From: a virus
Lineage: Duplodnaviria > Caudoviricetes
Direction: 5' to 3' (one strand)
Virus record (IMG/VR): IMGVR_UViG_3300015245_000041
Location: 1 to 59,035 of that record
DNA length: 59,035 bases
Part shown: piece by piece, positions 11,949-33,126 of the stretch
Layout: each line of letters opens with the position of its first letter
How positions within the stretch are numbered: the first letter of the stretch is position 1
The notes under the pieces: generated by a model
Database searches by the model: none
The model's input: the letters and a program-made list of their open reading frames with translations, nothing else
Told to the model about the DNA's origin: nothing
Translations under genes and position numbers: made by a program

Positions 11949-14450
11949 TCAGAACGGAGGTTCTGCTATGGCATCGAGTCCTTGCCAATCATAAACGAAG
12001 TTTGGGTGTAGCTCCTGAGCATCTCCCCAGTGATGACCCGCTTTAAGGTCAGCAATGATGGGTATAGTCAGGTTAACTCCGAACTTTTGCCTGAGGATAC
12101 TAACATCTTCCATAGTATCTTTGATTATGGGGAGGGCTGCTCGAACGTAATCTTTTCGGATTTCATAGTTGATTGCGTCATGCACGAGTCCCAGACAATG
12201 ACCTCTGATCCCTTCTTCACGGAAACGCCTATTAATCTCAACCATAGAGATGACAGCCATATCGGAAGCAAAACCCTGAACTGGGCTATTGATTGCTTGC
12301 CGTTCTGCTTCAGCACGAACTCCGGGGTCAGGGGAATAGATATCCGGTAGGTGACGTACTCTACCGAGGGGTGACTGTACTCTACCGTGCTCTGTAACGA
12401 GACGTCGTTGTCGAGCGTGCCAAGTGAGTAACCCAGGGTAGAGGTCAAAGAATACCTTTCTAGCATTTCTAGCACCATCCTCATCGTAGATTACTCCATA
12501 CTTCACAAAGGCTGTGTGGATGAATTTTCTCCATCCCATGCCATAGACAAATCCAAAGTTAATTGCCTTGGCTTTCTTTCTCATATCTTTAGTTACTTTG
12601 GATATGGGGACTTGTGCGTCTCGAGCTGCGGTGGTTAAGTGGATATCTGCACCTTGTTGGTAAAGCGAGATCATATGTCTTTCTCTAGCAATGAAAGCTG
12701 CTATTCGGAGCTCGATCTGACTATAGTCAGCTTCAATGAACACCCATCCGGGTGGCGCTCCAAATAAGCCTCTAATAAAGGGATCTCTAGGTACCTGTTG
12801 GAGGTTGACCCCTCTAGCTCGCCCTCTAGTCCCAGAAATTTTATCTTCATCTGCTTTCCCGGAGGAAAGTCGTCCAGTAACTGTTCCTGCGAGCTTGAAG
12901 TTAGTGTGAATACGATGATTCTCGTCGTAGAGTTCTTCGTAGGCATTGAAAAAACTCGAGATAGCTTTCTGCCACTCAACTCGGTCGAGCATGAATTGGA
13001 CTGCTGGGTGGATTTCCTTGAGTTCAAGGAGAATATCTTCTGCCATAGAAGGTGCTCCAGGCGACCCATCTGCTTTCTCCTTACCTCTCGCGAGAATAGG
13101 TAATTTTAAGTGTTCGAAGAGGAACCATCGCGCGAAGTTGCTTGCGTTGAAATTGATTGTCGAGATTCGGTTCTTAGCATCAGTCGGCCAACTAGGGTCA
13201 TCTTCTGCTGGAAGGAATTGTTTAATCTTGGCTTCAATTTCTTCAAGCTTACTGATAGCTTTTGGTTTCCTGTCTTTAAGTCTTTTAACATCTAACCAAA
13301 TCCCTCGAAGTTCAGAATGTACGAGCTCAGCATTAGCTGGCATAATTTCCAGCATAAAGAGTCTAAGGAGTCTAGGTTGTTTAGTTAGTTCTTCCTTAAG
13401 CTGTTGCTTGATCAAGTACATATACCAGGTATCAAGTACATTGTAATCTAAGACCTCTTTGATGGGCATGTTGAGAAGATCTTTGGTATCTACTCCCCAG
13501 GGTTCCACACCAAGCCTAGCTTGACCTTGAGGTTTCAGACCCTTCTGGATATTCTCGTTGAGCAAGTGAATTGCTAGCAAAGTATCGAACGTGACGGTGG
13601 TTGGGCAGTCGAAAGTTCTCATCCATTTTTCGTCGTACTTGCCGTTATGTGCAACAACTTTCTTGATTTTGCCGATGACCGGCGCCAAGAATTTAAGTAC
13701 AGACCGCCAAGTCTTTCTGAAGGGTGACTCCGGATGATATAGCGGGAGCGCGAACACGAATAGCTTAATTCCACCTGTTGTTCGAATTTCGCAAGTAGCA
13801 CTAAGAGAGATGATTCGTCCATCCGGTTTCCATTCCTCACTATGCGTTTCCACATCGAAGTCAAACTCAACACAATCTTTGAGAATGGTTCTTAGTTTTT
13901 TGAGCTTGTCCGGGGTATCTATGGTATGATACTTAGGCTTTCTAATCTTAGCTTCCCTACCCTGTACCTTATTTGAGAAGAGTAGCAGTTCGGCCATATA
14001 GCCGGGGCGTTGCCCGGGATTGCGATTCACGGCGCTTGGGGATATCGTAGGGATTACGGAAATGCCCGATCGATCAATTACCCGCCCTCGATATTTAGTA
14101 ATCCCAGAATGTCCGGTGGTTGCAAGCAATGCCTCATTACCAAAGGCGAGAATGTAGTCAGGTTCCACCTCCTCGATCTCTTGCTCCAGATAGGGACGAC
14201 AGGCTTTAACGTCAATGGGACTTGAGCTCTGATCGAAGTTTCGGCATTTTAATGCTTGCGTGTAATATACACTATCAAGAGGAAGACCAGCGTCAAGAAG
14301 ATCAGCTTCAAGATTAGCCTGGAACTTATCGCTATTAGGCATACGGCCCACAACCATAACTTTAGCTTTCTTAGGCCCAAAGCCAGGGACACATACATCG
14401 ACTGCCTCTCTGTGAAGCTTGCAATTGGTACAGTTAGGATTTGAGATCAT
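11949..14450 (-). CDS. polA: Family A DNA polymerase with N-terminal degenerate family-4 UDG domain and 3'-5' exonuclease
   Basis: TVTGRLSS, NLQQVPR, ADYSQIELR, KAINFGFVYG, VHDA; Exo DVET, HNGKYD, YNVLD; N-terminal C..C.L, KCR, AC..YL. Confidence 0.95.
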   Translation of the reverse strand: MISNPNCTNCKLHREAVDVCVPGFGPKKAKVMVVGRMPNSDKFQANLEADLLDAGLPLDSVYYTQALKCRNFDQSSSPIDVKACRPYLEQEIEEVEPDYILAFGNEALLATTGHSGITKYRGRVIDRSGISVIPTISPSAVNRNPGQRPGYMAELLLFSNKVQGREAKIRKPKYHTIDTPDKLKKLRTILKDCVEFDFDVETHSEEWKPDGRIISLSATCEIRTTGGIKLFVFALPLYHPESPFRKTWRSVLKFLAPVIGKIKKVVAHNGKYDEKWMRTFDCPTTVTFDTLLAIHLLNENIQKGLKPQGQARLGVEPWGVDTKDLLNMPIKEVLDYNVLDTWYMYLIKQQLKEELTKQPRLLRLFMLEIMPANAELVHSELRGIWLDVKRLKDRKPKAISKLEEIEAKIKQFLPAEDDPSWPTDAKNRISTINFNASNFARWFLFEHLKLPILARGKEKADGSPGAPSMAEDILLELKEIHPAVQFMLDRVEWQKAISSFFNAYEELYDENHRIHTNFKLAGTVTGRLSSGKADEDKISGTRGRARGVNLQQVPRDPFIRGLFGAPPGWVFIEADYSQIELRIAAFIARERHMISLYQQGADIHLTTAARDAQVPISKVTKDMRKKAKAINFGFVYGMGWRKFIHTAFVKYGVIYDEDGARNARKVFFDLYPGLLTWHARQRRLVTEHGRVQSPLGRVRHLPDIYSPDPGVRAEAERQAINSPVQGFASDMAVISMVEINRRFREEGIRGHCLGLVHDAINYEIRKDYVRAALPIIKDTMEDVSILRQKFGVNLTIPIIADLKAGHHWGDAQELHPNFVYDWQGLDAIAEPPF

Positions 14451-22577: not shown

Positions 22578-22659
22578 GATATCTCCTTCACTTCGAACCG
22601 GTCACTTAGTTCTTTTACTAAGATCCTCGGTCATGCCCCTTATTGGGCGGTGTACTACT

Positions 22660-22688
22660 AATCTATCAAATGCAGTGGGGGATGTCAA
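22660..22688 (-). promoter_or_regulatory. Sigma70-type promoter
   Basis: TTGACA-N17-TAGATT. Confidence 0.75.
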
Positions 22689-22715
22689 CTCCACGCGGAA
22701 TATTAGATTCCAGCG

Positions 22716-23564
22716 CTAGTGGCGATGACCCACCTTACGTCCCGCAAAAAGCAATCCACACCCCAGGACCAAAGCCAGCAAAGCTGATGCTAGAAAGCCT
22801 CCAACATTGCGAGGTCCAGTAGAAGCTAGAACAGGCTGGGCAGCAGGGGTTTCAGAGTTGGCTTGCACAACTACTGCATGATGTGTAGTCTTGGCATGAG
22901 TAGTTACGGGTGCACTATGAGTAGATGCGGAGGTACTGGGGTTAGATACTGGAGTACTGCTACTCGGAGTGGGGGTGGGAGTCTCAACGGGGCATTTCTT
23001 ACCCGTAATGTCTCCAGCACTGCCATCTTGACCGTCATTGTTATTAGAAGCATCTATCCATTTCTCAGAACAGGTTGTATATGTCCAAATATACTCATGG
23101 CCTTCACCATTACACCACTCGCCACCGGAGGCCTTAACCAATTCCTGAAGCCAGGTGCTAGTAGTAGTATCTGCCGAGGGTGAGACTAAAGCATCTAGAT
23201 TCAGATTTTTAGCAATGAAAGTCCAGTCATAAGTACCGTGAACTTCCCCAGTTGTTCCCGCGGTGAGAGAAACACCATCTCGAGGTGATAGGCTAGCAAG
23301 AGTAGTTAAAGTTCCGTCATCGGAGATGGTGGCAGTATAAGTATCTTCTGCTGTGCGGCAAACATGTGTCTTTCGAGTCAAGATCAATGTAGCCCAATCA
23401 CCATGATGACCACTATCAGGCCTAGTAGTCGGTGTGGAAGTATCACCGCACTGACCGACAGTCTGAGTAAGGGGGGGTGTAGCACTTGCAGAAGAGGCAA
23501 AAGTTACCCATCCCAATGCCAGCAAAGTTGCAGTCAATACCGCAGTAATGAACTTATTTCTCAT
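22716..23564 (-). CDS. Secreted, LAxTG sortase-anchored surface protein
   Basis: Signal peptide (ASA), P/T/S linker, LASTG + TM + basic tail. Confidence 0.8.
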   Translation of the reverse strand: MRNKFITAVLTATLLALGWVTFASSASATPPLTQTVGQCGDTSTPTTRPDSGHHGDWATLILTRKTHVCRTAEDTYTATISDDGTLTTLASLSPRDGVSLTAGTTGEVHGTYDWTFIAKNLNLDALVSPSADTTTSTWLQELVKASGGEWCNGEGHEYIWTYTTCSEKWIDASNNNDGQDGSAGDITGKKCPVETPTPTPSSSTPVSNPSTSASTHSAPVTTHAKTTHHAVVVQANSETPAAQPVLASTGPRNVGGFLASALLALVLGCGLLFAGRKVGHRH

Positions 23565-23749
23565 TTCTCCTCATTCATATCTATGGGGTTACCAAAACCA
23601 ATAGCCTTATCCATATACTTATATTCTTCTGGTACATCACCCCCTCTCAGGTATGCTCTAACTTCATTACGTTCTTTAGGACCAAAATCTCTACGGTATC
23701 GCCACCCTCTTACTACTCGCTTACGACGTTGAAGTTCTTCAGAAGTCAT
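23561..23749 (-). CDS. Hypothetical protein
   Basis: GAGGGA RBS; overlaps neighbours. Confidence 0.6.
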   Translation of the reverse strand: MTSEELQRRKRVVRGWRYRRDFGPKERNEVRAYLRGGDVPEEYKYMDKAIGFGNPIDMNEEK

Positions 23750-23927
23750 TGTTTTCCCTCCTCATTCTCTTGTAGTGCTCTATCCAACGGATTAAAGCCC
23801 TCGCCTCTTTAGGTTCCAAGGTTATCTTACCGAACTGAGAACCAAACTTTACTGCGAAGGGTTCATGTTTGTTGAGTAAAGCTGTTAACTCCTCGGTAGT
23901 TAGCTCAGTCAAGAATACCTTAGCCAT
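23739..23927 (-). CDS. Hypothetical protein
   Basis: GAGGGGAG RBS. Confidence 0.6.
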   Translation of the reverse strand: MAKVFLTELTTEELTALLNKHEPFAVKFGSQFGKITLEPKEARALIRWIEHYKRMRRENNDF

Positions 23928-24141
23928 CAGATCTCCCCTCAATCACGCAGTCAAAAACGGATGGGTAATATTCACTTCTATTGTACGGGCTCCCGGGAAC
24001 TTGAACTTCGATCCTTCCACCTGAGGGTGGTTCAGGATTTTTACTGATCTGAATAAATACATAGTCATTACCTCTGAAATCTATGATCTTCTCTCCAGAC
24101 TTGACTACAGTTCCATCAGCACGAATCAGAGCATAAATCAT
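23920..24141 (-). CDS. Hypothetical protein
   Basis: GAGG RBS; ATGA overlap; YYPSVF motif. Confidence 0.65.
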   Translation of the reverse strand: MIYALIRADGTVVKSGEKIIDFRGNDYVFIQISKNPEPPSGGRIEVQVPGSPYNRSEYYPSVFDCVIEGRSDG

Positions 24142-24314
24142 GTTAGATACCTCACTGTAGTTGAACTTACTCTGAGATAAAGGCCGGATTTAGTTTGATT
24201 TCCACACATGCAGCAAATTTCTTGAGTGGGGTTATCCATCTTAGTATCTACTGTGGGCTCTCCTCTTATGAGCTCTACCCAGCAGGGTCGACAGAAAGGC
24301 TGAGGCTTAATCAT
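24138..24314 (-). CDS. Small Cys-rich protein
   Basis: C..CW...CC.CG; overlap-coupled. Confidence 0.6.
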   Translation of the reverse strand: MIKPQPFCRPCWVELIRGEPTVDTKMDNPTQEICCMCGNQTKSGLYLRVSSTTVRYLT

Positions 24315-24531
24315 GGTGTTTACCATTCCCATTTTGGTTTCGTGCTGCTTGCCACTCGAGGAAGGCTCCACGAATCTCAGCGAGCTCTGAAACTGGAAAT
24401 TCATACCGTGCACCTTGACCTACTGCCTCATAGGGGCTACCTTCGGAGCGAAGCCACTTCCTAAACACTTTAGGATCAGTGCCTATACGATGTGCTACCT
24501 GTTTGGCTCCGTAGGTTTTTTCATGGGTCAT
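24307..24531 (-). CDS. Small HTH-like DNA-binding protein
   Basis: AKQVA..IGTDPK.FRKWLR...GQGARYEF; AAGGAGG RBS. Confidence 0.75.
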   Translation of the reverse strand: MTHEKTYGAKQVAHRIGTDPKVFRKWLRSEGSPYEAVGQGARYEFPVSELAEIRGAFLEWQAARNQNGNGKHHD

Positions 24532-24551
24532 GATATCGCCTCCTTACTACA

Positions 24552-24580
24552 ATGCTATAAGATTTTTGAGAGGTTGTCAA
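24552..24580 (-). promoter_or_regulatory. Sigma70-type promoter
   Basis: TTGACA-N17-TAGCAT. Confidence 0.75.
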
Positions 24581-24728
24581 TTTTATACTTCTGTATGACC
24601 GAGTTTATTTCATGAGGTTTACGAAAATGTTTTGGAGTGTAAGGAAGAGAAGGTTCAAAAAGAGACAACTGAGTTAATCCCGAGATAATCAAGATAATAA
24701 ATACTAGAAGTATACCAAGGGCAAGCAT

Positions 24729-24914
24729 TTATGCCTCACAGGGGGTGTTGAAGTGAGTTTCCAGAGGTTCGTTACATGCGAAGCACCCATAAGTGGCCTT
24801 ATCTTCGCATGCTAATTGCGTATCGGGGTCAACAATTACGATGGGCTGCCCCTGCGCGTCTCCCAGCACTTCCACGGGCGTAAAAGTTATCATGCACCAT
24901 TGATGCACCCTCAT
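24729..24914 (-). CDS. Small Cys/His protein
   Basis: H.W...GC..C; ATGA overlap. Confidence 0.6.
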   Translation of the reverse strand: MRVHQWCMITFTPVEVLGDAQGQPIVIVDPDTQLACEDKATYGCFACNEPLETHFNTPCEA

Positions 24915-25459
24915 CGTAATCCCGCCATTAACATCTCACTAGCCCCGCAGATGGGACACCGTCGTGAGGTGGGATCAAATGGAGCTTTGCTGAATGTATG
25001 ATGTTTGCTAAACCACCCAATAACTACTGGCCGCCTACAATACGGGCACCAATGATGAATAGTCTCATCAGCTGGTAAATGAGGAGTCCAGAATACTATC
25101 TTTGTTCTCTGAGTTAATTTGCCATTTGACCCCCTGATCATAATGGGCTTACCGCTCTTAGTTACCCTCACCAGTTTGTGTGGGGGTTTAAAGGCTGTAC
25201 CTCGAGACTGGATGGTAGCATCGTAAACATCGGGAAGGTATTTCTTCAACAACTTGAAGGCATCAACATATGTCCACATATCTCGACATGCCCAGCCCAG
25301 GTCTATGCGTTTTTGGACATATACCCGCCATGGCGGAGAAGTTCGAGGGATAACTGCAAGTTCCGGTTTACTAAGGAAGAACTTCTTATAAGTTGAATCT
25401 TCTAGAAGTTCTTTCAGGGTTATCATGCGTATTTCTGAGTAAGAAGCTGTACCAGCCAC
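24911..25459 (-). CDS. Hypothetical protein with C-terminal Zn finger
   Basis: WCPYCRRP...H...RCPICG. Confidence 0.75.
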   Translation of the reverse strand: MAGTASYSEIRMITLKELLEDSTYKKFFLSKPELAVIPRTSPPWRVYVQKRIDLGWACRDMWTYVDAFKLLKKYLPDVYDATIQSRGTAFKPPHKLVRVTKSGKPIMIRGSNGKLTQRTKIVFWTPHLPADETIHHWCPYCRRPVVIGWFSKHHTFSKAPFDPTSRRCPICGASEMLMAGLR

Positions 25460-25614
25460 TCGCTGGGCTGTGTACCATGCCAGTCAAGTTCCTTCTTGAC
25501 CTTTTCCTCCGGCGTCAAGGTATTCCACACAAACTGTCGTGCCTTGGCTTCTTTTCGCTTGGTTTCTTTAGTGTTTCGGGCGCTGAACGGGCCCGGACCA
25601 CTGTACCTGCTCAT
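25423..25614 (-). CDS. Hypothetical protein
   Basis: ACCGAGGAG RBS. Confidence 0.6.
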   Translation of the reverse strand: MSRYSGPGPFSARNTKETKRKEAKARQFVWNTLTPEEKVKKELDWHGTQPSEWLVQLLTQKYA

Positions 25615-25966
25615 ACCATCTCCTCGGTAGGATGGATAGTAAGGACCCCAGGGCCCATCAGCAGTATCGGGGGGACCTGCGTCAAGACCCTGGGGTCGTC
25701 ATGAAACCCTCTAACCTTCGAGTGTAAACCTCTCGCGGAAGAGATTTTACCGGTGCCCCAAGGTTGAGGGGATTAAATTGTATACCCTGAGTAGTCATTC
25801 GGGATCCGGGACCAGAACCCCCATCTATCATCAGCAAAGAAGTCACTACCCAATCTTCTTAGCTTGTGTGGGATAGGCGCGGGGTCTTAGTTCTTTATAA
25901 ACCGCCCTAGCCCTGCAATTGAGGAAGTGGGTTATCGGCAAGCCGCGTGACCCCCCTATATCCTCG

Positions 25967-26046
25967 TGTGCAGTCGGGGATTCGATCCCCTTCGGCGCTA
26001 ACCGAAATCCCTGGTTGAGTTGATCAGTCTCTACCCTGAACTGCAC
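25967..26046 (-). ncRNA. tRNA-like element 1 (8/4 acceptor/T stems, long variable arm)
   Basis: GTGCAGTT/GACTGCAC-A; GGGG-ATCGAAT-CCCC; TTCGG/CCGAA arm; anticodon loop non-canonical. Confidence 0.6.
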
Positions 26047-26049
26047 CCG

Positions 26050-26125
26050 TGCGCTGGCCCGACTCGAACGGGACTGTCATGCCTACTCCCTATGGACAGG
26101 ACCAAGAAGCGTGACTAAGCAGCGC
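26050..26125 (-). ncRNA. tRNA-like element 2
   Basis: GCGCTG/CAGCGC-A; CCCG-TTCGAGT-CGGG T-arm; no clear D arm. Confidence 0.6.
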
Positions 26126-26314
26126 GTCTGCCGGGGTTTCACCTTTAGCCCTAACTCTTCAACATTACTGGCTATCAAGGGAATTATTCCCCGCAGAAGT
26201 TCCTCTGTGTAGTTAAAGCCCTCCCAGCTAGATATCTAGCGGCTAAATCTAGTGAGCATGCTGGGAGGGTGGGGTGCCGACCCCTAAAATGTCTCTTTGT
26301 CCCCGGGGGGCGGG

Positions 26315-26461
26315 TCAGTAGGTCAGGGTCTTGTCCTGGATGCCCTGCTTCAGCTCGGCCTTGTCCTTATCGGACAACTTCTTCCACTGGGCCATGAACT
26401 CACCCGTCTTCATTTCGAAGAAATCGCGGATATCTTTGACTCCGGTGCTGGCCTCAGCCAT
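26315..26461 (-). CDS. 48-aa protein MAEASTGVKDIRDFF...DKTLTY (absent from ORF track)
   Basis: ACCGAGGAGG RBS, upstream promoter, GC3-rich codons. Confidence 0.75.
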   Translation of the reverse strand: MAEASTGVKDIRDFFEMKTGEFMAQWKKLSDKDKAELKQGIQDKTLTY

Positions 26462-26499
26462 AATTGCCTCCTCGGTAGCGGCGATTGATCGATGCAGTT

Positions 26500-26528
26500 A
26501 CTCTATCAAACCAAAAATTGAGAGTCAA
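26500..26528 (-). promoter_or_regulatory. Sigma70-type promoter (leftward)
   Basis: TTGACT-N17-TAGAGT. Confidence 0.7.
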
Positions 26529-26582
26529 TAGGTGGTTCTAACGACTTTATTCCACTCCGCTATGTCCCAAAGGGCAAATGTC

Positions 26583-26614
26583 TGATATGATCATTACTCC
26601 AACGACCGAGGAGG
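26583..26614 (+). promoter_or_regulatory. Extended -10 promoter plus GACCGAGGAGG RBS motif (rightward)
   Basis: TGA-TATGAT at 26583-26591; motif at 26604-26614. Confidence 0.5.
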
Positions 26615-26621
26615 TAGTCTG

Positions 26622-26813
26622 ATGGCATCCGAATTCGAACGAGGCTTAGTTCAGGGTAGAAAGGAGGGCCGTACTCAAGAACGTAAGGAAATACTAGATT
26701 GGCTGGAAGAGCAATACCTGAAGAAGACTGTCTTACGGGGGTCAGAGAAAGGGAAAGCTATTCTGAAGCTTGCTGGCGAACTCTCGAAGGTGATGAAGTC
26801 TAGTGGACTATGA
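26622..26813 (+). CDS. Hypothetical protein, first gene of primase operon
   Basis: Strong RBS; overlaps primase start. Confidence 0.7.
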   Translation: MASEFERGLVQGRKEGRTQERKEILDWLEEQYLKKTVLRGSEKGKAILKLAGELSKVMKSSGL

Positions 26814-28818
26814 GAAGCAGCTCAGTATAATTAAGCGCGCATGGGGGCGTACACAGAAAGGTTATTGCTTCTTCCCCTGGATTGATCGAGAAGAGCAGGC
26901 AGCAGCAGGAATTCGACGCGCAGGATTCTACGAAGGACCAGCCTTTAAGTGGCCTCAGGACAAAGATAAGATCTTGTCTCACATGGCTCAGCACGAGGAG
27001 CATGATCTATATTGGTGCCCCTCTCTTTTTGAGTATGAACAACGACGTACTGATGTTGCGATGGATGAGTGCGCTCTTTGGGCAGATTTAGATGAGATTA
27101 ACCCCAAGGAAATACCCGAGGAATATCCTCCGACTGTTGCCTGGCAGACATCCCCAGGACGCTATCAGGCTCTCTGGATTCTATCGATGGGTGATATCCA
27201 GGGTGCGAGTTGGCCCGGTAACGAGAATCAAAGACTGACATACTTTCTCGGCGCTGACCTCGGCGGGTGGGATACCACACAGCTGTTGAGGATACCGGGT
27301 TGGACCAATCATAAGCTGGAGTATCGTGATAAAGTATCTGGTGCATCGCCTCAAGGTAAGGTTCTATGGACTAATGGGCGCACATACCTGTCTGATGACT
27401 TCGAGGACTTGCCGGAGGTGCGCGGTGCCGGTGCAGCCAACGATCTCACCGACGCAGTTATCCAAGAGATCGAGGCAATCGAGCATAACACGGTATTGGC
27501 CCGAGTAAAGCTTAAGCTTACTCAACGTATTCGAGATTACATCAGGGCTCGACAGACTTCTGGTGATCGCAGCAATGTACTCTGGGAGATTGAACGATCC
27601 TTGGCTGATGCTGGTTGTAGTCTCGCAGAGATCGTTTCAATCGTGAAGAGCACGGTATGGAATAAGTATGCTGGCCGTTCGGATGAAGATAAACGACTTA
27701 TCATAGAGGCTAATAAAGCTATCGCACAACGATCCACACAGAAAGTAGAAGAAGATGAAGTTCTTAGAGAACATGCTCAACAGTCAGTTCCTCAACAAGC
27801 TGATCTTATGTTGAAATTAGTTAAACCTCCTCGATGGTTGGTTAAAAATATCCTTACTCAAGGTGGAGTTGGGTTTATAGCTGGAGAACCTAAGTCTTAT
27901 AAATCATGGTTCGGTCTTGATTTAGCCATCAGTGTTGCTACGGGTACCCGCTTTCTTAACCACTTTGACATTGAGAAGCCCGGACCAGTACTATATCTAC
28001 AAGAAGAAGATAGCCCAGTAACTATCAAGTCTCGATGGGGAACCATCAAGCGGGGTAAGAAACAAATGCCCCTCTCGGTACAGGATGGCTATCTTTACCT
28101 GGAACCTACACAACCTCTGGATGATGAAACACTTATTAAGGTCGACATGAATCTTCAGGGCGGTCTTGTTTTATCCGAAGATGTCTGGCAAGAATGGCTT
28201 GATGAACAATTACGGCGGGGTTTTACCATGGCTTCCGACGAACCCTATAGACTGATTATTGTAGACACTCTTATGATGACCGCGGGTCTTGTACAGGAGA
28301 ATCAGTCTCAGGAGATGACTACTAAGTATTTTAAACCTCTCAAAGAACTTGCTCGTAAGCATGAGGTAGCACTTATCTTAGTACATCATATGAATAAAAA
28401 TGGCGAAGCTAAACGCGCTGGTCAACGTATGTTAGGCAGTGTTGCTAATCATGCCTGGGCTGAGGATTCTATGTATCTTACACCTCGATCTGACGGGGTA
28501 GATATGGAGACAGAAAGTAAGACATGGAAAAAAGCTAAGTATACTGTCAATATTCATGAGAAGGGCTGGTATCCGGTAGTTAGTCCGGAGAATAGTACCA
28601 GGACCAGTAAATCTAGCCTCGGTAGTGACGGGATCCTCGAGGCTTTACAGGTGCTAGGTGATCGCGCGCACACCCGCGCGCTCGCTGAACAACTAGGTAT
28701 GCAGTGGCCCAAGATGCGCCGTTCTCTCACTAATAAGCTCGAGCACCGAGTCGCCCAGGGTCAGCTTGTGAAACAGCAAAACACCCCACAAAGCCAGATA
28801 CTATGGGTTCTCGCATGA
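26803..28818 (+). CDS. Primase-helicase (RepB-like primase + AAA_25/RepA helicase)
   Basis: LWADLD, TSPGRYQALW, LLRIPG..NHK; GEPKSYKS, EED, IVDT, VHH, GS. Confidence 0.9.
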   Translation: MDYEKQLSIIKRAWGRTQKGYCFFPWIDREEQAAAGIRRAGFYEGPAFKWPQDKDKILSHMAQHEEHDLYWCPSLFEYEQRRTDVAMDECALWADLDEINPKEIPEEYPPTVAWQTSPGRYQALWILSMGDIQGASWPGNENQRLTYFLGADLGGWDTTQLLRIPGWTNHKLEYRDKVSGASPQGKVLWTNGRTYLSDDFEDLPEVRGAGAANDLTDAVIQEIEAIEHNTVLARVKLKLTQRIRDYIRARQTSGDRSNVLWEIERSLADAGCSLAEIVSIVKSTVWNKYAGRSDEDKRLIIEANKAIAQRSTQKVEEDEVLREHAQQSVPQQADLMLKLVKPPRWLVKNILTQGGVGFIAGEPKSYKSWFGLDLAISVATGTRFLNHFDIEKPGPVLYLQEEDSPVTIKSRWGTIKRGKKQMPLSVQDGYLYLEPTQPLDDETLIKVDMNLQGGLVLSEDVWQEWLDEQLRRGFTMASDEPYRLIIVDTLMMTAGLVQENQSQEMTTKYFKPLKELARKHEVALILVHHMNKNGEAKRAGQRMLGSVANHAWAEDSMYLTPRSDGVDMETESKTWKKAKYTVNIHEKGWYPVVSPENSTRTSKSSLGSDGILEALQVLGDRAHTRALAEQLGMQWPKMRRSLTNKLEHRVAQGQLVKQQNTPQSQILWVLA

Positions 28819-29017
28819 CGGGAGATGCGCTCGGGCGCATACGACCGGGGCTTCCAACAGGGTCGCGCGCGTGCTTAGATATCAATAATCAATCATCATT
28901 ATTCATTCTCTCAAACGCAATGCCCTACGGTGGGCACAGGTCGTCGAATACGTACACTCGCCGGGGGCTAGTATCCGCCGCCATGAGCTCCTTGGGCTTG
29001 CTACCGAAAGGAATCCA

Positions 29018-29200
29018 ATGCAACACAAAAATTGCTTAGAATACCCCTGTCCGGAATGTGAACATGACATGAACCTCGCTTCTGCTCAAACAGAACATAC
29101 ACCTACTTCTAAGTATAACCCCACAATTCGGGTTAGTTGGTTTGAAGCAGCTCGTCAGGAAGCTATCGCAAATGGAGAAATCCCTGATGGCCACCTGTAG
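29018..29200 (+). CDS. Small Zn-binding protein
   Basis: GAAAGGA RBS; H..C...C..C. Confidence 0.55.
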   Translation: MQHKNCLEYPCPECEHDMNLASAQTEHTPTSKYNPTIRVSWFEAARQEAIANGEIPDGHL

Positions 29201-29402
29201 TTACTGCACCCTCGAATCCGCCAAAACTAGGTTCAACACTCTCAAGCAACCTGACGGCTCACGGGTATACTTAAGGGTTGAATCTGCCCACGAAGGCTGG
29301 CTGTCAGTCTACAAAATAACGGAGGATCAATATGGGACCCCGACCCACGAAACCGCTATCGGGATGAGCTTCAAAGCTTACCCAACAACATGTGTTTGTT
29401 AA
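29187..29402 (+). CDS. Small Cys-containing protein
   Basis: GGAG RBS; C.YC...C.C. Confidence 0.55.
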   Translation: MATCSYCTLESAKTRFNTLKQPDGSRVYLRVESAHEGWLSVYKITEDQYGTPTHETAIGMSFKAYPTTCVC

Positions 29403-29437
29403 CTGAAGTTACCCTCTAACTAAGGATACTATTACAC

Positions 29438-30058
29438 ATGACAGAGGACCCTCGACACAGGCTCGCTGAAATACTCTCATCGGGTGGTGTGGGATATGGT
29501 CAAGTCTCGCAGGAAGTGTTGTACATGCTGCCTAGGGAATTCTTAGATAAATACGTGCAGTTATGGTATATGGCTTTAGGTCCACTGATTCAGGGACAAG
29601 GTCAGCAGATGACGCGGGATGGGGAATTGGGTAGAGCTAAGACAAGAACAACTGAGAAAGGGAGAAAGATAGGGGCTGGTGCGGGAGGAGAGGCTAAACG
29701 GTATAGAAAAAGCGGATACAGCATACGAAATGAGCTCGCTTTCCAACTCAAGGACCGCATCGACAAAAGGCTTAGAGGCATAGCGCGAGAGCTTAGACTG
29801 ACACTGTCGGACCTTGAGGCTCGGCAGAATACGGCATATGGGTCTGTTAAGGCTGGAGGGGGGGCTGAGAGGAGAATGGGGGAAGAGACTGGGGCTAATG
29901 GTAACACTACTGAGAGTACAGGCAACGCTTTAAAGAGCACTAGAGGGATGAGAAGATGTATCAAATGTGGCAGATATGGTGTGGATGGATGGGCTTTCTG
30001 TCCCTATGATGGGAAGGCTTTGATCAGAGAAAAGGAAAAAGAAAATCCTGAGGATTAA
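29438..30058 (+). CDS. Hypothetical protein with C-terminal zinc ribbon
   Basis: CIKCG...WAFCPYDG; AAGGA RBS. Confidence 0.75.
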   Translation: MTEDPRHRLAEILSSGGVGYGQVSQEVLYMLPREFLDKYVQLWYMALGPLIQGQGQQMTRDGELGRAKTRTTEKGRKIGAGAGGEAKRYRKSGYSIRNELAFQLKDRIDKRLRGIARELRLTLSDLEARQNTAYGSVKAGGGAERRMGEETGANGNTTESTGNALKSTRGMRRCIKCGRYGVDGWAFCPYDGKALIREKEKENPED

Positions 30059-30727
30059 TTTAGGAATCAAGAGAATGCTGATCATAATGATAGAAATAAG
30101 CGATCATCTTTGGGTATGAGGGATTATTTTAGGTATCGGGAAGGTATATGCTTGATGCGACGATTGATTGATGATTACGCGATGATGACTCACACTTGAG
30201 GGAATGCGAAGGAGGTGGATAAATTGATGGGTGAGGTAGTAAACGTTGGATCGCAAAATTGTTATGGGACGAAATGGAGAGGTGGAGAGCGTGGCGTTTA
30301 TTTTCGTGGTGGGATAAGATCTATAGTGCACAGTGGAGCTAGATTGATGCTCTGTCAATCCCACGTAAATTCTGCAGGCGGTACATGAGGCTCACATGCC
30401 GCGTAAAGTTGCGTGCTACATGTTGTAAACAGCTGCTAACGATTGCAAAGTTGGCTTTTGGTCCGTCAAAAAGCTCGGAGATCCCAAAACAACGATACTT
30501 CCTAAACATAGTAGAAACAGAAATCTCTCCTTTAAAGGATACTACGTCTCAACACCACGAAAAGGGACAATGGGGAAGGCTTGAGACTCATCCTAAGGGC
30601 GGCATTAGTTCAGGGGATAGCCAGCATAAAGGTACAGGGGGTGATGGCTCACGACGTCGTTGAGGACGGTGGAAGGACTGGCACTTAGGTGCCATCCAAC
30701 GTACGGGGGGCATGGTAGGATAGGGGC

Positions 30728-30886
30728 ATGACAACGACCGATCCCATCCGTGAGGCAATGGATCGACGCATGCAGGATGAGAAATCACCTGATGAAATCC
30801 GTGAACTCATGCGCGGGATTCCGATCCGTCGGATTCCTCCGAAGAGTCATAACCATTCTGTGCGGCATAAGTCATCCCAACGATAG
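30728..30886 (+). CDS. 52-aa leaderless protein MTTTDPIREAMD...
   Basis: TGG-TAGGAT -10 six nt before ATG. Confidence 0.5.
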   Translation: MTTTDPIREAMDRRMQDEKSPDEIRELMRGIPIRRIPPKSHNHSVRHKSSQR

Positions 30887-30896
30887 GAGATCGGAC

Positions 30897-31139
30897 ATGA
30901 CATCGACACCTTCCCACGAGGAAATCATCCAACGGGCGAAAAATATCCTGACTGAGCACTTGGGAGATATGCAGGACGCAATGGATGAACTTGCTGATTT
31001 GCTAGAATCCGCCAATTACATCGTAACAGACAATGATGAGGATTGGGCTCAATTGGATGAGTTCTTCGGGTTTATTGCCAAAAAGGTTGTTGAGGGATGG
31101 GGTCCTGCAAAGGATCCATTCGTTGGGGAAGGGGAGTAA
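30897..31139 (+). CDS. Acidic hypothetical protein
   Basis: AGGAG RBS before ATG 30897. Confidence 0.7.
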   Translation: MTSTPSHEEIIQRAKNILTEHLGDMQDAMDELADLLESANYIVTDNDEDWAQLDEFFGFIAKKVVEGWGPAKDPFVGEGE

Positions 31140-31510
31140 TGAGACATAAGATCTTGATAGGGAGGATCGTTCTTCGCATCCTGAAGGATCCAATGGGAGC
31201 GGATCAGGGGGTAAAGGGACCGAAAAGGACAACGCCACCGCCTCTAGTTAAGAAGGTAGAAAGGGACAATCGGATGACTCGAGCATTTATTCAGGGAAGA
31301 GTTAAAAAGGCGAAAAAACGGACCAAAAAGATGATTGCTGAGGCAATCCGCAATGGGCACACATACATCCAACACGAGGTATATGGTGACATAGCCGCTA
31401 AGGCATGGATGGAGATAGGATGGGAGCCATTGTCCGAATCATGGGATAGGGATATCGGTGGGATGAAAGTCACGATCAGGATGCGCGTCCCTTCCGTTCC
31501 TTGGGAGTAA
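31139..31510 (+). CDS. Hypothetical protein (GWEP.S.S family)
   Basis: TAATG coupling; AAGGGGAG RBS. Confidence 0.65.
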   Translation: MRHKILIGRIVLRILKDPMGADQGVKGPKRTTPPPLVKKVERDNRMTRAFIQGRVKKAKKRTKKMIAEAIRNGHTYIQHEVYGDIAAKAWMEIGWEPLSESWDRDIGGMKVTIRMRVPSVPWE

Positions 31511-31818
31511 AGGGTCCGGTTTGGAGATAAGGGCCTGAGAGCGATTTTAAGGGGGTAAGGGTGACGCTCAATGCCAGCATAATCAAAGGGGATCGCTTGC
31601 CGTGGCGTCGATGCTAGACGCTTTAAAGGGGCGATTGACCGTAGCATGATCCTTTGGATGGGGTGGGGTGATCGCATGCGCGTAATCCGATCTTGCTCCT
31701 ACGGGCATCTCAGAGCCGCCAAGGAGCATCCCCTCGCGCGGGCGCGTGCTTGATGCAGGGGTGATGATGGCATTGTAATAGCAGTTTAGGAGGTGGCGCT
31801 AGGGTGCCGGTATTTGCC

Positions 31819-31847
31819 TTGACGGGATGGGCAGGGGGGGATAAGGT
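31819..31847 (+). promoter_or_regulatory. Sigma70-type promoter
   Basis: TTGACG-N17-TAAGGT. Confidence 0.7.
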
Positions 31848-31905
31848 TATGGCATTGATCGATCGCACACCGCGACCGACGATCACATCCAAAGGGGATG
31901 ACGAC

Positions 31906-32238
31906 ATGACCGCAACGATGACGACCGCCCAGCTCGCCGAGGCGCTCGACACCACCCCACGCGAACTGCGCAAGTTCCTCCGCGCCGACGCGAAGACGAA
32001 GGGGACGACCGACACCCTTCCGGGCAAGGGTTCGCGATACGCCCTTCCGGGTACGAAGTCCGCGATCGCCTCCGCGAAGAAGCGATTCATCGCATGGTCC
32101 GCACAGCAGGACGAGGCCCGCAAGGCTCGCAACGAGGCCAAGGTGCTCGAGGACACCGTTCCCGACGTCGAGGACGAGACCGACACCGAGCCCACCGATG
32201 CCGAACTCGACGAGGTCGACGAAGAGGTCGAGGACTGA
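31906..32238 (+). CDS. HTH-like DNA-binding protein with acidic tail
   Basis: TTAQLAEALDTTPRELRKFLR...PGKGSRYAL; AAGGGG RBS; strongly GC3-rich. Confidence 0.8.
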   Translation: MTATMTTAQLAEALDTTPRELRKFLRADAKTKGTTDTLPGKGSRYALPGTKSAIASAKKRFIAWSAQQDEARKARNEAKVLEDTVPDVEDETDTEPTDAELDEVDEEVED

Positions 32239-32247
32239 CATACCCAT

Positions 32248-32276
32248 CCAGGATCCCCCTTCGGGGGGATTTCTGG
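32248..32276 (+). terminator. Terminator-like hairpin
   Basis: ATCCCCC-TTCG-GGGGGAT just after stop. Confidence 0.7.
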
Positions 32277-32401
32277 TGTGTCTGTGACATATTGGTGTAA
32301 ACGGACATGCGCCTGAGAAGTGTTGTGTGGAAGATCATTTATGAGGGCGAATGCTAGCATAAGGAGAGGGCACGATCGGTCGCAAACTCGTGCTCAGCGC
32401 C

Positions 32402-32431
32402 TTGACTCTGAGGGGGTTGGTCTGATAGCAT
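32402..32431 (+). promoter_or_regulatory. Sigma70-type promoter, leaderless
   Basis: TTGACT-N18-TAGCAT-N6-ATG. Confidence 0.75.
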
Positions 32432-32437
32432 AGATGC

Positions 32438-32677
32438 ATGACAACGACGATGATTGATGCTGACGCCCTACTCGCGACTCTGCTTGACTGCGACGACGAA
32501 CTTGACATCGATCAACTTGATCTTACCATCTTGATCTCGCACCATCTTGCTGAAACGATCAATGACGATGCCGCCAAAAACTTCTTGCTCTCATATGACT
32601 GCTGCCCAATCCATCACTGCGACATCGAAATCTGCCGCGACGACAACGATCTCGAATGCATCCAATTTCGCAACTAA
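32438..32677 (+). CDS. Very acidic small protein with CCPIHHC motif
   Basis: Leaderless start behind promoter. Confidence 0.7.
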   Translation: MTTTMIDADALLATLLDCDDELDIDQLDLTILISHHLAETINDDAAKNFLLSYDCCPIHHCDIEICRDDNDLECIQFRN

Positions 32678-32697
32678 TCCCGAAAGGGGGGGGAATC

Positions 32698-32793
32698 ATG
32701 ACAACCATCCGCAACTACATGCTGCATCGCAAGATGAGATTGATCATCCGTCGCCATGCATGGATCCTTGACACGGAGTTGCAGACGCGGTAG
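32698..32793 (+). CDS. 31-aa basic peptide
   Basis: GAAAGGGGG RBS before ATG. Confidence 0.4.
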   Translation: MTTIRNYMLHRKMRLIIRRHAWILDTELQTR

Positions 32794-32796
32794 CAT
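32768..32796 (+). promoter_or_regulatory. Sigma70-type promoter
   Basis: TTGACA-N17-TAGCAT-N6-ATG. Confidence 0.75.
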
Positions 32797-32802
32797 TAAT
32801 GC

Positions 32803-33126
32803 ATGCTCAATCACTCGACACCCCAAGGAGGGGACATCATGACCCGCTTTCTGCTCATCATCACCGCATTGATTCTCGCGGGGGTCACTGCGATCACTCT
32901 GACTGCTGACTCGCCGCATCACCACACCATCACTCCCATGCCTGCACCCTCACCATCGACCTCGACAATCACTCACGGGGATTATACTCCGGGCAAGGCG
33001 GGGGACCCTGGGGTGGACTTGCCGGGGATTGCGACTGCTACTCCTGGTCAGGTCTGGATATCTGCTGGCCCCGGGGATAATGTATGCCGCGCTCCTGGGG
33101 ACTGCGGATATGGGGATAACAACTGA
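32803..33126 (+). CDS. Small secreted/membrane protein
   Basis: Signal/TM segment, P/T linker; alternative ATG 32839 with AAGGAGG. Confidence 0.7.
   Translation: MLNHSTPQGGDIMTRFLLIITALILAGVTAITLTADSPHHHTITPMPAPSPSTSTITHGDYTPGKAGDPGVDLPGIATATPGQVWISAGPGDNVCRAPGDCGYGDNN

What the first reader, a model, noticed from the sequence alone, without database searches (positions are those of the whole stretch)
25644..26310. ~670-nt cassette of back-to-back structured RNAs inside an early operon
Seen: between a 48-aa gene and gene 25614 lie consecutive stems: 25644-25697, 25707-25770, 25855-25927, 25929-25953, two tRNA-like units, 26143-26218, 26219-26269 (CCCTCCCAGC/GCTGGGAGGG) and GGGGT/ACCCC. Both flanking genes carry the ACCGAGGAG motif. 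Some stems have G-T pairs favouring the plus strand, so strand is not certain for every module. Inference: a polycistronic ncRNA array, released by RNase P/Z/III at the tRNA-like units, acting as decoys or antitoxin mimics; alternatively one large RNA.
Basis: partly seen in the sequence, partly recalled or inferred. Interest (0 to 1): 0.75.

Follow-up and report, generated by a model that had tools for sequence, protein, structure and literature searches.

The report
tRNA-like RNA cassette in phage operon
A 700-base non-coding insert in a phage's early operon carries a compact mimic of the top half of a transfer RNA; the same mimic recurs in many other phages and in conjugative elements of soil actinobacteria and is in no RNA catalogue searched here.

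Summary
The gap 25615-26314 is real, non-coding and lineage-specific. It lies on the minus strand of the leftward early operon of a complete 59-kb actinophage-like genome. It is not a uniform array of strong stems: five local elements fold better than shuffles (z about -2.9 to -3.3) and the rest does not. A near-identical phage lacks 155 nt of it (25770-25924). ARAGORN, the Rfam tRNA model and all of Rfam 15 find nothing.

The first tRNA-like unit (26047-26130, minus strand) belongs to a recurrent element that Rfam does not hold. It has a freely covarying 6-bp closing stem, a variable hairpin, an invariant T arm and an R-C tail. I found it in dozens of unrelated viral contigs and in 24 of 151 Pseudonocardiaceae genomes, there always just downstream of one conserved gene in conjugative-element-like loci. 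The second unit (25968-26046) is a well-folded cloverleaf-like mimic with no relatives found.

Best reading: a horizontally acquired, co-transcribed cassette whose tRNA top-half mimics are handled by host tRNA-processing enzymes. These would cut the operon RNA and release stable small RNAs. The identity is well supported. The mechanism is inferred. No expression data exist.

The parts
25615..26314 (-). Whole non-coding gap between the 48-aa and 63-aa genes. It is an insert relative to related phages and is richer in G+C (0.51-0.59) than its flanks (0.44-0.50).
26500..26528 (-). Candidate leftward early promoter (TTGACT-17-TAGAGT with TG). Consensus match only.
26315..26461 (-). 48-aa gene (phrog_9674, weak DUF7026) with RBS ACCGAGGAG at 26468-26476. 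Relatives occur in only 3 of 138 related loci and in Mycobacterium phages such as Faith1.
26219..26284 (-). Stable hairpin CCCTCCCAGC/GCTGGGAGGG (26219-26269) plus small hairpin GGGGT/ACCCC (26271-26284), just downstream of the 48-aa gene. Possible attenuator or end-protecting hairpin. Strand ambiguous.
26047..26130 (-). tRNA-like element (TLE), unit A; core 26051-26125. It has a 6-bp closing stem GCGCUG/CAGCGC, a long central hairpin, a T arm CCCG-UUCGAGU-CGGG and an A-C tail. It is a member of the recurrent family.
   Evidence: 66.2 bits; 46.5 bits, E 4.8e-7, general model, filters off
25968..26046 (-). Unit B: a cloverleaf-like tRNA mimic starting 4 nt after the closing stem of unit A. It has an 8-bp closing stem, two internal arms, a T-like arm GGGG-AUCGAAU-CCCC and an A-C tail. 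No relatives found.
   Evidence: (z -3.31)
25770..25924 (.). 155-nt segment flanked by the 6-nt direct repeat TTGAGG. It is absent from a near-identical phage contig and from contigs of a soil DNA run. It is the least structured part.
25707..25770 (-). Long imperfect hairpin, retained in the deletion variant because the repeat forms part of its stem.
   Evidence: z -2.92
25644..25697 (-). 10-13-bp G+C-rich hairpin that ends 15 nt before the RBS of the 63-aa gene. Favoured on the minus strand. Candidate 5'-end-protecting or RNase III-type element.
   Evidence: z -3.02
25423..25614 (-). 63-aa basic gene with RBS ACCGAGGAG (25620-25628). Its stop overlaps (ATGA) the likely true start of the conserved 171-182-aa gene.

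Best explanation
The interval is a horizontally acquired, non-coding cassette. It is transcribed on the minus strand as part of the leftward early operon: promoter, 48-aa gene, cassette, 63-aa gene, conserved 182-aa gene.

Its functional core is two tandem mimics of the tRNA 'top half', that is, an acceptor-like stem stacked on a T arm. Unit A belongs to a widespread element, uncatalogued in Rfam, of actinobacterial phages and conjugative elements. Unit B is a unique cloverleaf-like relative.

Proposed mechanism (inferred). Host tRNA-processing enzymes recognise the acceptor/T-arm shape: RNase P at the 5' side, RNase Z or exonucleases plus the CCA-adding enzyme at the 3' side. They cut the polycistronic RNA between the first gene and the rest, releasing one or two stable ~75-80-nt tRNA-like RNAs. 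The flanking G+C-rich hairpins (26219-26284 and 25644-25697) protect the new mRNA ends. Expression of the 48-aa gene is thereby uncoupled from that of the downstream genes.

Shown: non-coding nature, insert status, family membership, covariation, and the dispensable 155 nt. Inferred: transcription, cleavage, and any effect on expression. I put the identity at about 0.85 and the mechanism at about 0.35-0.45.
For: 1. Non-coding.
- No frame has gene-like codon bias.
- No ORF in the gap hits a family.
- The 155-nt natural deletion removes the start of the only ORF with a good codon score.

2. Insert.
- In 70 of 87 related loci the 182-aa homologue starts less than 1,000 nt from the primase gene; in the window the distance is 1,377 nt.
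- The 48-aa gene occurs in only 3 of 138 loci.
- The gap sequence is found only in the near-identical L060.
- G+C in the gap is above that of the flanks.

3. Unit A is a family member.
- Its 22-nt 3' part is exact in 2 unrelated viral contigs and 4 actinobacterial genomes.
- A covariance model built from 6 seeds hits 24 of 151 genomes of that family at E<=0.01.
- A general model searched with filters off finds only this site in the window: 46.5 bits, E 4.8e-7.

4. The closing stem is real.
- 98.6% of cells are paired, all 6 pairs show double changes, and 0 of 500 shuffles reach this; slid controls give 27-52% paired.
- Among 86 distinct non-tRNA viral sites with the T arm, 39 have a perfect Watson-Crick closing stem against 1-4 for shifted controls, with 43 distinct stem sequences.

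5. RNA-level and co-transcribed.
- The T-loop reads correctly only on the operon strand.
- In 26 of 26 bacterial loci that have the upstream gene, the element is co-oriented with it and 20-120 nt downstream.
- In L141 it ends a six-tRNA array on the same strand.

6. Unit B folds far better than shuffles: z -3.31, 0 of 200.

7. Precedent. The tRNA-like module of M. smegmatis YrlA is cut by RNase P in vitro and receives CCA in vivo (PMC4201824, passages).
Against: - No RNA data. No RNA run holds the sequence.
- The closing stem is 6 bp, which with a 5-bp T stem gives 11 bp, not the 12 bp of tRNA. [quoted passage not shown]
- No CCA is encoded; only an R-C tail is present.
- Unit A alone is not more stable than shuffles (z +0.60), and its first T-stem pair is U-C in the window.
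- The near-invariance of the T arm could instead mean sequence-specific recognition by a protein, or a DNA-level role.
- Wobble pairs do not clearly favour one strand in the larger alignment: 7 G-U cells against 8 unpaired cells.
- Unit B has no relatives, so it carries no comparative support.
- A related phage (L064) has a structured gap in the same place but with no detectable T-arm element.
Confidence: 0.45

Rival explanations
1. tRNA-mimic decoy or sponge. The released or embedded tRNA-like modules titrate a host factor that recognises the tRNA elbow or acceptor. Candidates are a tRNA-targeting defence nuclease, a modification enzyme such as TruB/TrmA, EF-Tu, or a toxin. The benefit to the mobile element would come from this titration, not from mRNA processing.
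For: - The T arm is invariant at the sequence level while the stem covaries. This is what binding to a sequence-reading host factor would predict.
- The element occurs on two kinds of mobile element, phages and conjugative-element-like loci.
- It has no conserved neighbour gene among viral sites; the largest cluster covers 9 of 90 sites. It therefore acts without a dedicated partner.
Against: - There is no anticodon-like loop in the family; the middle is a variable hairpin of 14-58 nt. Anticodon nucleases would have no target.
- No defence or counter-defence gene was identified beside it.
- No binding or expression data exist.
Confidence: 0.15
2. Decayed tRNA genes: relics of a former two-gene tRNA array, now functionless, within a junk spacer left by recombination.
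For: - The units are 75 and 79 nt long and lie in tandem with a spacer of only a few nt.
- Unit A has a 7-nt loop with U at the second position.
- Some relatives carry true tRNAs in the same leftward arm: L002, L023 and L028.
- Both units fail ARAGORN and RF00005.
- 155 nt of the gap is dispensable.
- The same T arm occurs in 29 bona fide viral tRNAs.
Against: - Unit A matches a family whose members keep the stem by compensatory change in many unrelated genomes and keep specific unpaired bases. A decaying pseudogene would not do this.
- Acceptor and T stems are intact in both units while only the lower half differs.
- For unit B alone this rival cannot be excluded.
Confidence: 0.15
3. DNA-level element. 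The hairpins and T-arm palindrome act in single-stranded or cruciform DNA, as a priming or initiation site for the adjacent RepB-type primase-helicase, or as a recombination or transfer site.
For: - The cassette lies 490 nt from a gene with RepB_primase and AAA_25 domains.
- The family also sits in conjugative-element-like loci beside an FtsK/SpoIIIE gene.
- Sequence invariance of 17 nt is typical of protein-binding DNA sites.
Against: - About 80 phages with the same primase lack the cassette.
- No integrase or resolvase is present in the genome.
- The element is always co-oriented with the upstream gene (26 of 26) and ends a tRNA operon in L141.
- The loop is a canonical T-loop on one strand only.
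Confidence: 0.1
4. Unannotated small protein genes. Candidates are the 54-codon ORF 25682-25846 (minus), which abuts a 66-codon ORF by a 1-nt overlap.
For: The codon score of the 54-codon ORF is 6.1, within the top 1.5% of 198 spurious small ORFs.
Against: - No RBS precedes it.
- It has no family hits.
- Its start and first 26 codons are deleted in the near-identical variant.
- The 66- and 31-codon ORFs score 0.0 and -1.6 and overlie the tRNA-like units.
Confidence: 0.05
5. One large structured RNA of 545-700 nt, of the GOLLD/ROOL type.
For: - Such RNAs occur in phages, often near tRNAs (recalled, no call).
- The whole-gap z is -2.29.
- A related phage has a strongly structured gap in the same position: L064, z -4.93.
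Against: - No Rfam match at gathering score or at E<=10.
- A 155-nt internal deletion is tolerated.
- Long stretches are no more structured than shuffles.
- Only 84 nt have relatives.
- There is no similarity to the L064 gap; 149 of 200 shuffles score as high.
Confidence: 0.03

Closest known systems
tRNA-like module of bacterial Y RNAs (YrlA, Rfam RF02553)
   Same: Both are non-coding RNAs that mimic the tRNA acceptor/T-arm. YrlA-like RNAs are found in actinobacteria and in some mycobacteriophages. The M. smegmatis module is cut by RNase P and gets CCA (PMC4201824, passages read).
   Different: - There is no RF02553 match at E<=10 and no Ro60/TROVE gene.
- The element here has no Ro-binding stem and no D arm.
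- It has a 6-bp stem and a different, invariant T arm.
- It is embedded in an operon or sits behind a gene.
Abundant early non-coding RNA of Cluster A mycobacteriophages (L5, D29, StarStuff)
   Same: That RNA comes from a ~500-bp non-coding region just downstream of the early lytic promoter in actinobacteriophages. It is processed into several stable 100-400-nt species and its function is unknown (PMC5712189, abstract, passages and section 11 read).
   Different: - There is no sequence similarity to any GenBank phage.
- Here a 48-aa gene precedes the region.
- tRNA-like units are not described in the passages I read.
- Expression is not known here.
Phage tRNA genes and tRNA arrays (RF00005)
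   Same: The units have similar lengths (75 and 79 nt), tandem spacing, T-loop sequence and acceptor-like stems. The same T arm occurs in 29 real viral tRNAs, and one family member ends a tRNA array.
   Different: - They fail ARAGORN and the tRNA covariance model.
- They have no D arm and no anticodon arm.
- C replaces U8, and the stem is 6 bp.
tRNA-like processing signals and viral tRNA-like structures (mascRNA of MALAT1, plant-virus TLS, tmRNA tRNA-like domain)
   Same: The principle is the same: an acceptor/T-arm mimic inside a longer RNA that recruits tRNA enzymes. This is recalled knowledge plus the search listing.
   Different: Those belong to eukaryotic or RNA-virus systems, or to tmRNA. 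Rfam models of these families gave no match, and ARAGORN found no tmRNA.

Membership tests
tRNA (RF00005 / ARAGORN) | Cloverleaf with D arm, a 7-nt anticodon loop on a 5-bp stem, and a model score of at least 29 bits | tested here: not met
   ARAGORN finds 0 genes in the window. Only relaxed thresholds (ps90/ps80) give overlapping, inconsistent calls. RF00005 gives no match at E<=10 in the genome while ringing in 14 of 14 control genomes.
tRNA (RF00005 / ARAGORN) | T arm with G53-C61 and a UUCRANY loop, stacked on a closing acceptor stem | tested here: met
   Unit A has CCCG-UUCGAGU-CGGG with GCGCUG/CAGCGC. Unit B has GGGG-AUCGAAU-CCCC (A at position 54) with an 8-bp stem.
Recurrent tRNA-like element defined here (models R1, R3) | 6-bp closing stem directly abutting a 5-bp T stem with loop UUCGAGU | tested here: met
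   Window 26047-26130 (minus) scores 66.2 bits with R1 and 46.5 bits, E 4.8e-7, with R3 and filters off. One deviation: the first T-stem pair is U-C instead of G-C.
Recurrent tRNA-like element defined here (models R1, R3) | Conserved unpaired bases: C after the 5' strand (52 of 53), and R then C after the 3' strand (50 of 51, 49 of 51) | tested here: met
   The window has C after GCGCUG and A-C after CAGCGC. The GGC linker before the T arm is not conserved in the window, which reads GACAG.
Recurrent tRNA-like element defined here (models R1, R3) | Structure supported by compensatory change across members | tested here: met
   In A5, 6 of 6 closing-stem pairs show double changes, 73 cells in all, and 0 of 500 shuffles reach this. 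A3 gives the same trend. Caveat: both alignments were fitted to the model. The independent count (39 against 1-4) does not depend on it.
Y RNA / YrlA | Match to RF02553 and an adjacent Ro60 (TROVE) gene | tested here: not met
tmRNA | tRNA-like domain plus tag reading frame | tested here: not met
   ARAGORN in tmRNA mode finds none. Rfam finds none.
Large phage-associated RNAs (GOLLD, ROOL) and self-cleaving ribozymes | Match to the Rfam covariance models | tested here: not met
   There are no matches at gathering score in the window and none at E<=10 in 25400-26500. The scan itself works: a Pistol ribozyme was found in a relative (L028).
CRISPR repeat mimic (RNA anti-CRISPR) | Match to a CRISPR repeat family | tested here: not met
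   The only hit is an 18.1-bit match to CRISPR-DR32 (gathering score 48, E 4.6) on the plus strand at 25743-25779. The hairpin is broken in the deletion variant.
Cluster A mycobacteriophage early non-coding RNA | High abundance and stability of processed RNAs made from the early promoter | not testable with these tools
   No RNA run holds the sequence.

The most novel reading that the evidence does not exclude
The element behind unit A is a new, widespread class of mobile-element RNA. It is a minimal mimic of the tRNA elbow and acceptor: closing stem, variable hairpin, a conserved GGC linker that may dock on the loop, an invariant T arm and an R-C tail. Phages and actinomycete conjugative elements would exchange it horizontally and use it to hijack or jam a host tRNA-recognising machine. 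Candidates are RNase P, the CCA-adding enzyme, T-loop modification enzymes or a tRNA-directed defence. In this reading the window's cassette is a two-unit version, captured by a low-G+C phage from a high-G+C donor.
Probability: 0.2. Interest if true: 0.85.

Novelty: new variant of a known kind. Interest (0 to 1): 0.62.

Why it matters
tRNA mimicry is a known strategy. A compact, covarying, sequence-invariant T-arm element shared by unrelated phages and by conjugative elements of one actinobacterial family, and missing from Rfam 15, would be a new RNA motif with a clear biochemical handle: RNase P, CCA-adding and T-loop enzymes can all be assayed in vitro.

It would also explain some of the unannotated non-coding gaps in actinophage genomes. 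It offers a concrete candidate for how mobile elements punctuate or stabilise their early transcripts, or interfere with host tRNA biology. For annotation, it shows that tRNA finders miss this class entirely.

Tried and rejected
- Rfam at gathering score (window; related and family loci) and at E<=10: nothing relevant. The three or two sub-threshold hits are chance-level.
- BLAST of the gap against GenBank phages: no match. A 76-nt family member against the same collection: no match. The exact shared part is only about 24 nt, so this cannot show absence.
- Close-relative scans with the 182-aa protein and the primase: none found.
- Search for homologues of the 48-aa protein: only itself, on 3 contigs.
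- Search with the 63-aa protein against phages: no match.
- Ro60/YrlA, and integrase or resolvase for an attP reading: absent.
- Sequencing runs: no RNA holder is listed. The one DNA run was laid and shows only the deleted form. The part without cover there is not evidence of anything else.
- The window gap and the L064 gap are not alignable beyond chance.
- Unit B has no family. Its model finds nothing in 88 phage loci. It finds only E 0.015-0.09 hits in 5 of 151 genomes, within chance for that many genomes and not tRNAs by ARAGORN. Its T-arm 16-mer occurs 8 times in IMG/VR without a similar architecture.
- The broad pattern scan was too loose: 52 of 121 hits were real tRNAs, and most of the rest lacked a T stem.
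- The 155-nt segment has no terminal inverted repeats by eye and no other copy in the genome or in the loci. I read it as a microhomology deletion, not a mobile insertion.
- The upstream gene of the bacterial loci: no Pfam family, only a sub-threshold NCBIfam hit to 'SCO3933 family regulatory protein' (20.5 bits against a cut-off of 80), and no plasmid match.
- Literature. No paper holds 'DUF7026'. None holds 'actinomycete integrative and conjugative' together with 'tRNA-like'. For 'tRNA-like' with 'actinobacteriophage', 3 papers hold both terms and the 2 listed looked irrelevant from their titles and abstract starts. I found no description of this element in those searches. Supplements were not consulted and could hold relevant motif lists.
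- Earlier findings of this scan: nothing by place or by sequence.
Full report
**Context**

The window is a complete viral genome of 59,035 bp with direct terminal repeats. Its 671-aa RepB-primase/AAA_25 protein (26803-28818) is 47-53% identical to proteins of Microbacterium and Curtobacterium phages and about 39% identical to those of Gordonia phages. Hundreds of metagenomic relatives lie on 52-64-kb contigs. The genome also has a family A DNA polymerase with an N-terminal UDG domain, an SNF2 helicase, a portal and a major head protein.

The finding lies on the minus strand of the leftward arm, which is transcribed divergently from the primase gene. A promoter-like site for that arm is at 26528-26500. 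The order on the minus strand is:
- a 48-aa gene (26315-26461);
- the 700-nt gap (26314-25615);
- a 63-aa basic gene (25423-25614), whose stop overlaps as ATGA the probable true start of a conserved 171-182-aa gene.

The gap is non-coding by every test I could run.
- A codon model trained on 34 long ORFs gives positive scores in the flanking genes and nothing gene-like in any frame of the gap.
- The three ORFs of 31-66 codons in it have no Pfam or PHROGs hits.
- One 54-codon ORF (25682-25846) has a codon score in the top 1.5% of 198 spurious ORFs. It has no ribosome-binding site, and its start is missing in a near-identical genome.

Structure is uneven.
- The whole gap has z -2.29 on the minus strand and -1.56 on the plus strand.
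- In 45 sliding 100-nt windows, only three places reach z of about -3 on the minus strand: 25600-25724, 25950-26049 and 26175-26299. Several windows are positive.
- Folded alone, the hairpins 25644-25697 and 25707-25770 and the second tRNA-like unit are significant (z -3.0, -2.9, -3.3). The region 26205-26314 is borderline (-2.0).

So this is a modular region with several real elements, not a continuous run of strong stems.

The ACCGAGGAG motif is a genome-wide extended ribosome-binding site: 9 copies against 0.48 expected, and 7 of 9 lie before an ATG. Two are preceded by the same -10-like sequence.

**The gap is an insert, and part of it is dispensable**

Using an alignment of primase homologues I fetched 56 IMG/VR loci and 80 metagenome loci.
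- In 70 of 87 loci where both genes are seen, the 182-aa homologue starts less than 1,000 nt from the primase gene. The window has 1,377 nt. Where I listed ORFs (11 of the 17 longer cases), the extra length was mostly plus-strand genes.
- A homologue of the 48-aa gene exists in only three loci.
- The gap sequence matches only L060.

L060 is about 99% identical on the left flank and 94% on the right. It is 100% identical within the gap except that 155 nt (window 25770-25924) are missing, between two copies of TTGAGG. Contigs of a soil DNA run carry the same deleted junction. The missing piece is the least structured part, and the hairpin 25707-25770 survives because the repeat is part of its stem.

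A third phage, L064, has the same architecture: a 48-aa-like gene, a 396-nt gap, a 64-aa basic gene and the 182-aa homologue. Its gap is very structured (z -4.93, 0 of 100 shuffles), but it shares no detectable sequence with the window.

The gap is richer in G+C (0.51-0.59) than its surroundings.

**What the tRNA-like units are not**

- ARAGORN finds no tRNA or tmRNA. Only at relaxed thresholds does it give mutually overlapping calls.
- The Rfam tRNA model gives nothing at E<=10.
- No Rfam family matches at gathering score, or meaningfully at E<=10.
- There is no YrlA match and no Ro60 gene.
- There is no integrase or resolvase that would make the T-arm fragments an attachment site.

**What unit A is**

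On the minus strand, 26125-26051 reads as follows:
- a 6-nt strand GCGCUG;
- a C;
- a long hairpin;
- a T arm, CCCG-UUCGAGU-CGGG;
- a C, which in other members closes the T stem as a fifth (G-C) pair;
- the complementary strand CAGCGC;
- an A-C tail.

Its 22-nt 3' part occurs exactly in two viral contigs that share no protein with the window and have 64-67% G+C. In one (L141) it follows a six-tRNA array on the same strand and precedes a hairpin I read by eye as terminator-like. In the other (L142) it precedes a ribosome-binding site. The same 22 nt occur in four actinobacterial genomes. Three of these (Saccharomonospora, Prauserella, Amycolatopsis, all Pseudonocardiaceae) show the same 5' strand, and only the middle differs.

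A covariance model of six seeds (R1) finds one copy in each of those three genomes. It finds matches at E<=0.01 in 24 of 151 genomes sampled from the same family. It finds none at E<=0.001 in 150 other genomes sampled across the class, with the stricter filters and a limited number of scored candidates.

In 26 of 30 bacterial loci, the element lies 20-120 nt downstream of a conserved 127-142-aa gene and on the same strand. The neighbourhood has a GntR/UTRA regulator and an FtsK/SpoIIIE protein. From general knowledge, that gene set is the signature of actinomycete integrative and conjugative elements. I did not verify integration sites.

Of 122 sites, 29 lie in ARAGORN tRNAs and 93 do not. Among 86 distinct non-tRNA sites with complete flanks:
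- 39 have a perfect six-pair Watson-Crick partner for the six bases right after the T arm (56 if G-U is allowed);
- control hexamers shifted 7-19 nt downstream give 1-4 (11-16 with G-U);
- the 56 stems have 43 different sequences.

Several of the sites without a partner look to me like one recurring protein-coding sequence. That is by eye and not tested.

On model-based alignments of 35 and 58 members:
- 98.6% of cells pair;
- all six closing-stem pairs show double changes in the larger set;
- no shuffle of 500 reaches the observed values;
- sliding the partner drops pairing to 27-52%.

Those alignments lean towards the model, but the count does not. Conserved unpaired bases are a C after the 5' strand, a GGC-like linker before the T arm, and a purine then C after the 3' strand. 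The base before the stem and the purine after it almost never form a pair.

A general model built from 58 members (R3), run over the whole window with filters off, finds exactly one site: unit A, at 46.5 bits and E 4.8e-7. A bacterial member has no Rfam match even at E<=10. No single neighbour gene accompanies the viral copies; the largest cluster covers 9 of 90 sites, a count that did not exclude sites inside tRNAs.

**Unit B**

Unit B spans 26046-25968 on the minus strand and starts 4 nt after the closing stem of unit A. It folds as:
- an 8-bp closing stem;
- a weak arm with a 9-nt loop;
- a 6-bp arm with a tetraloop that abuts a T-like arm, GGGG-AUCGAAU-CCCC.

The fold has z -3.31. It shares with the family the C after the 5' strand and the A-C tail, which is only a hint. 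Its own model finds no relative in 88 phage loci. In 151 genomes it finds nothing beyond chance-level hits. Its T arm occurs eight times in IMG/VR in unrelated contexts. It may be a divergent private copy of the same kind of element or a decayed tRNA. I cannot tell which.

**Mechanism**

What is shown:
- The cassette is non-coding, acquired and partly dispensable.
- It holds a member of a conserved RNA-type element with the geometry of the tRNA acceptor/T-arm stack.
- It lies co-oriented inside an operon. Its relatives likewise lie behind genes or at the end of a tRNA operon.

What I infer: the elements are recognised by enzymes that read that geometry. The closest documented case is the tRNA-like module of M. 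smegmatis YrlA, which RNase P cuts in vitro and which receives CCA in vivo (PMC4201824). Cleavage would separate the mRNA of the 48-aa gene from the downstream mRNA and release small stable RNAs. The hairpins at 26219-26284 and 25644-25697 are in the right places to protect the resulting ends.

Points against:
- The stack is 11 bp rather than 12.
- No CCA is encoded.
- No RNA evidence exists.

The invariance of the T arm fits a decoy for a sequence-reading host factor, or a DNA site, about as well. I keep these as rivals. In Cluster A mycobacteriophages a ~500-bp non-coding region behind the early promoter gives the most abundant, processed, stable RNAs of infection, of unknown function (PMC5712189). 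That is a positional analogue, not a relative.

**Novelty and verdict**

tRNA mimicry is a known kind of system. This particular element, its spread over phages and conjugative-element-like loci, and its absence from Rfam 15 and from the literature searches I ran make it a new variant.

Noticed in passing
window 8662, 11698, 18843, 23889, 25620, 26468, 26605, 37897, 47481: ACCGAGGAG occurs 9 times against 0.48 expected. Seven copies sit 4-7 nt before an ATG. Two (11698, 37897) are preceded by the same TAGCATATAAGAT -10-like sequence. It looks like a start-associated motif marking first genes of transcription units, comparable in kind to the start-associated sequences of Cluster K mycobacteriophages (recalled, no call).
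   Followed up: partly
window 26030-26042 and 26648-26660: There is a 13-nt exact inverted repeat between the D-arm-like part of unit B and the coding sequence of the 63-aa plus-strand gene upstream of the primase. The minus-strand RNA is identical, not complementary, to the plus-strand mRNA there. Its meaning is unknown.
   Followed up: no
L060 (whole locus) against window 22648-32847: The relationship to the closest relative is mosaic. The left flank is about 99% identical and the next 2.1 kb 94% identical. Identity then drops to 70-88%, and the primase protein is only 72% identical. This points to recent recombination within the replication module.
   Followed up: partly
L064 708-1103 (minus strand): A related phage has, at the same position between a 48-aa-like gene and a 64-aa basic gene, a 396-nt gap made of about nine consecutive hairpins (z -4.93). 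It has no sequence similarity to the window and no T-arm motif.
   Followed up: partly
L028 2628-2675 (minus strand): There is a Pistol ribozyme match above the gathering score (38.9 bits against 34.5), next to tRNA-Leu and tRNA-Asn in the leftward arm of a related phage.
   Followed up: no
L041 about 334-425 and L053 about 205-296 (minus strand): This is a different tRNA-like element that ARAGORN does not call. It has a 5-bp closing stem GGGCC/GGCCC, a conserved hairpin, a canonical T arm and, in L041, an encoded GCCA end. In L053 it lies next to a tRNA-Met.
   Followed up: no
L105 about 690-1290 and L138 about 190-800: At the same hot spot, between the 182-aa gene and the divergent promoter, two relatives carry about 600 nt. 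By eye, this encodes a Cys-rich HNH/endonuclease-VII-like protein. That was not tested with any tool.
   Followed up: no
L140 (Mycobacterium phage Faith1) 564-658: An unannotated 470-nt gap between genes 45 and 46 holds a canonical T arm. ARAGORN calls it tRNA-Arg(ccg), 95 nt, in a run at a relaxed threshold; the default threshold was not run on this locus.
   Followed up: no
window 11949-14450 (minus strand): The family A DNA polymerase carries an N-terminal uracil-DNA-glycosylase-superfamily domain (PF03167, E 2.5e-15) fused to the exonuclease and polymerase domains.
   Followed up: no
window 25682-25846 and 25846-26046 (minus strand); L060 3038-3244: The 155-nt deletion in L060 fuses the 66-codon ORF in frame to the end of the 54-codon ORF. 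I worked the frames out by hand from the coordinates, and a one-in-three coincidence is possible. Neither ORF has a ribosome-binding site.
   Followed up: partly
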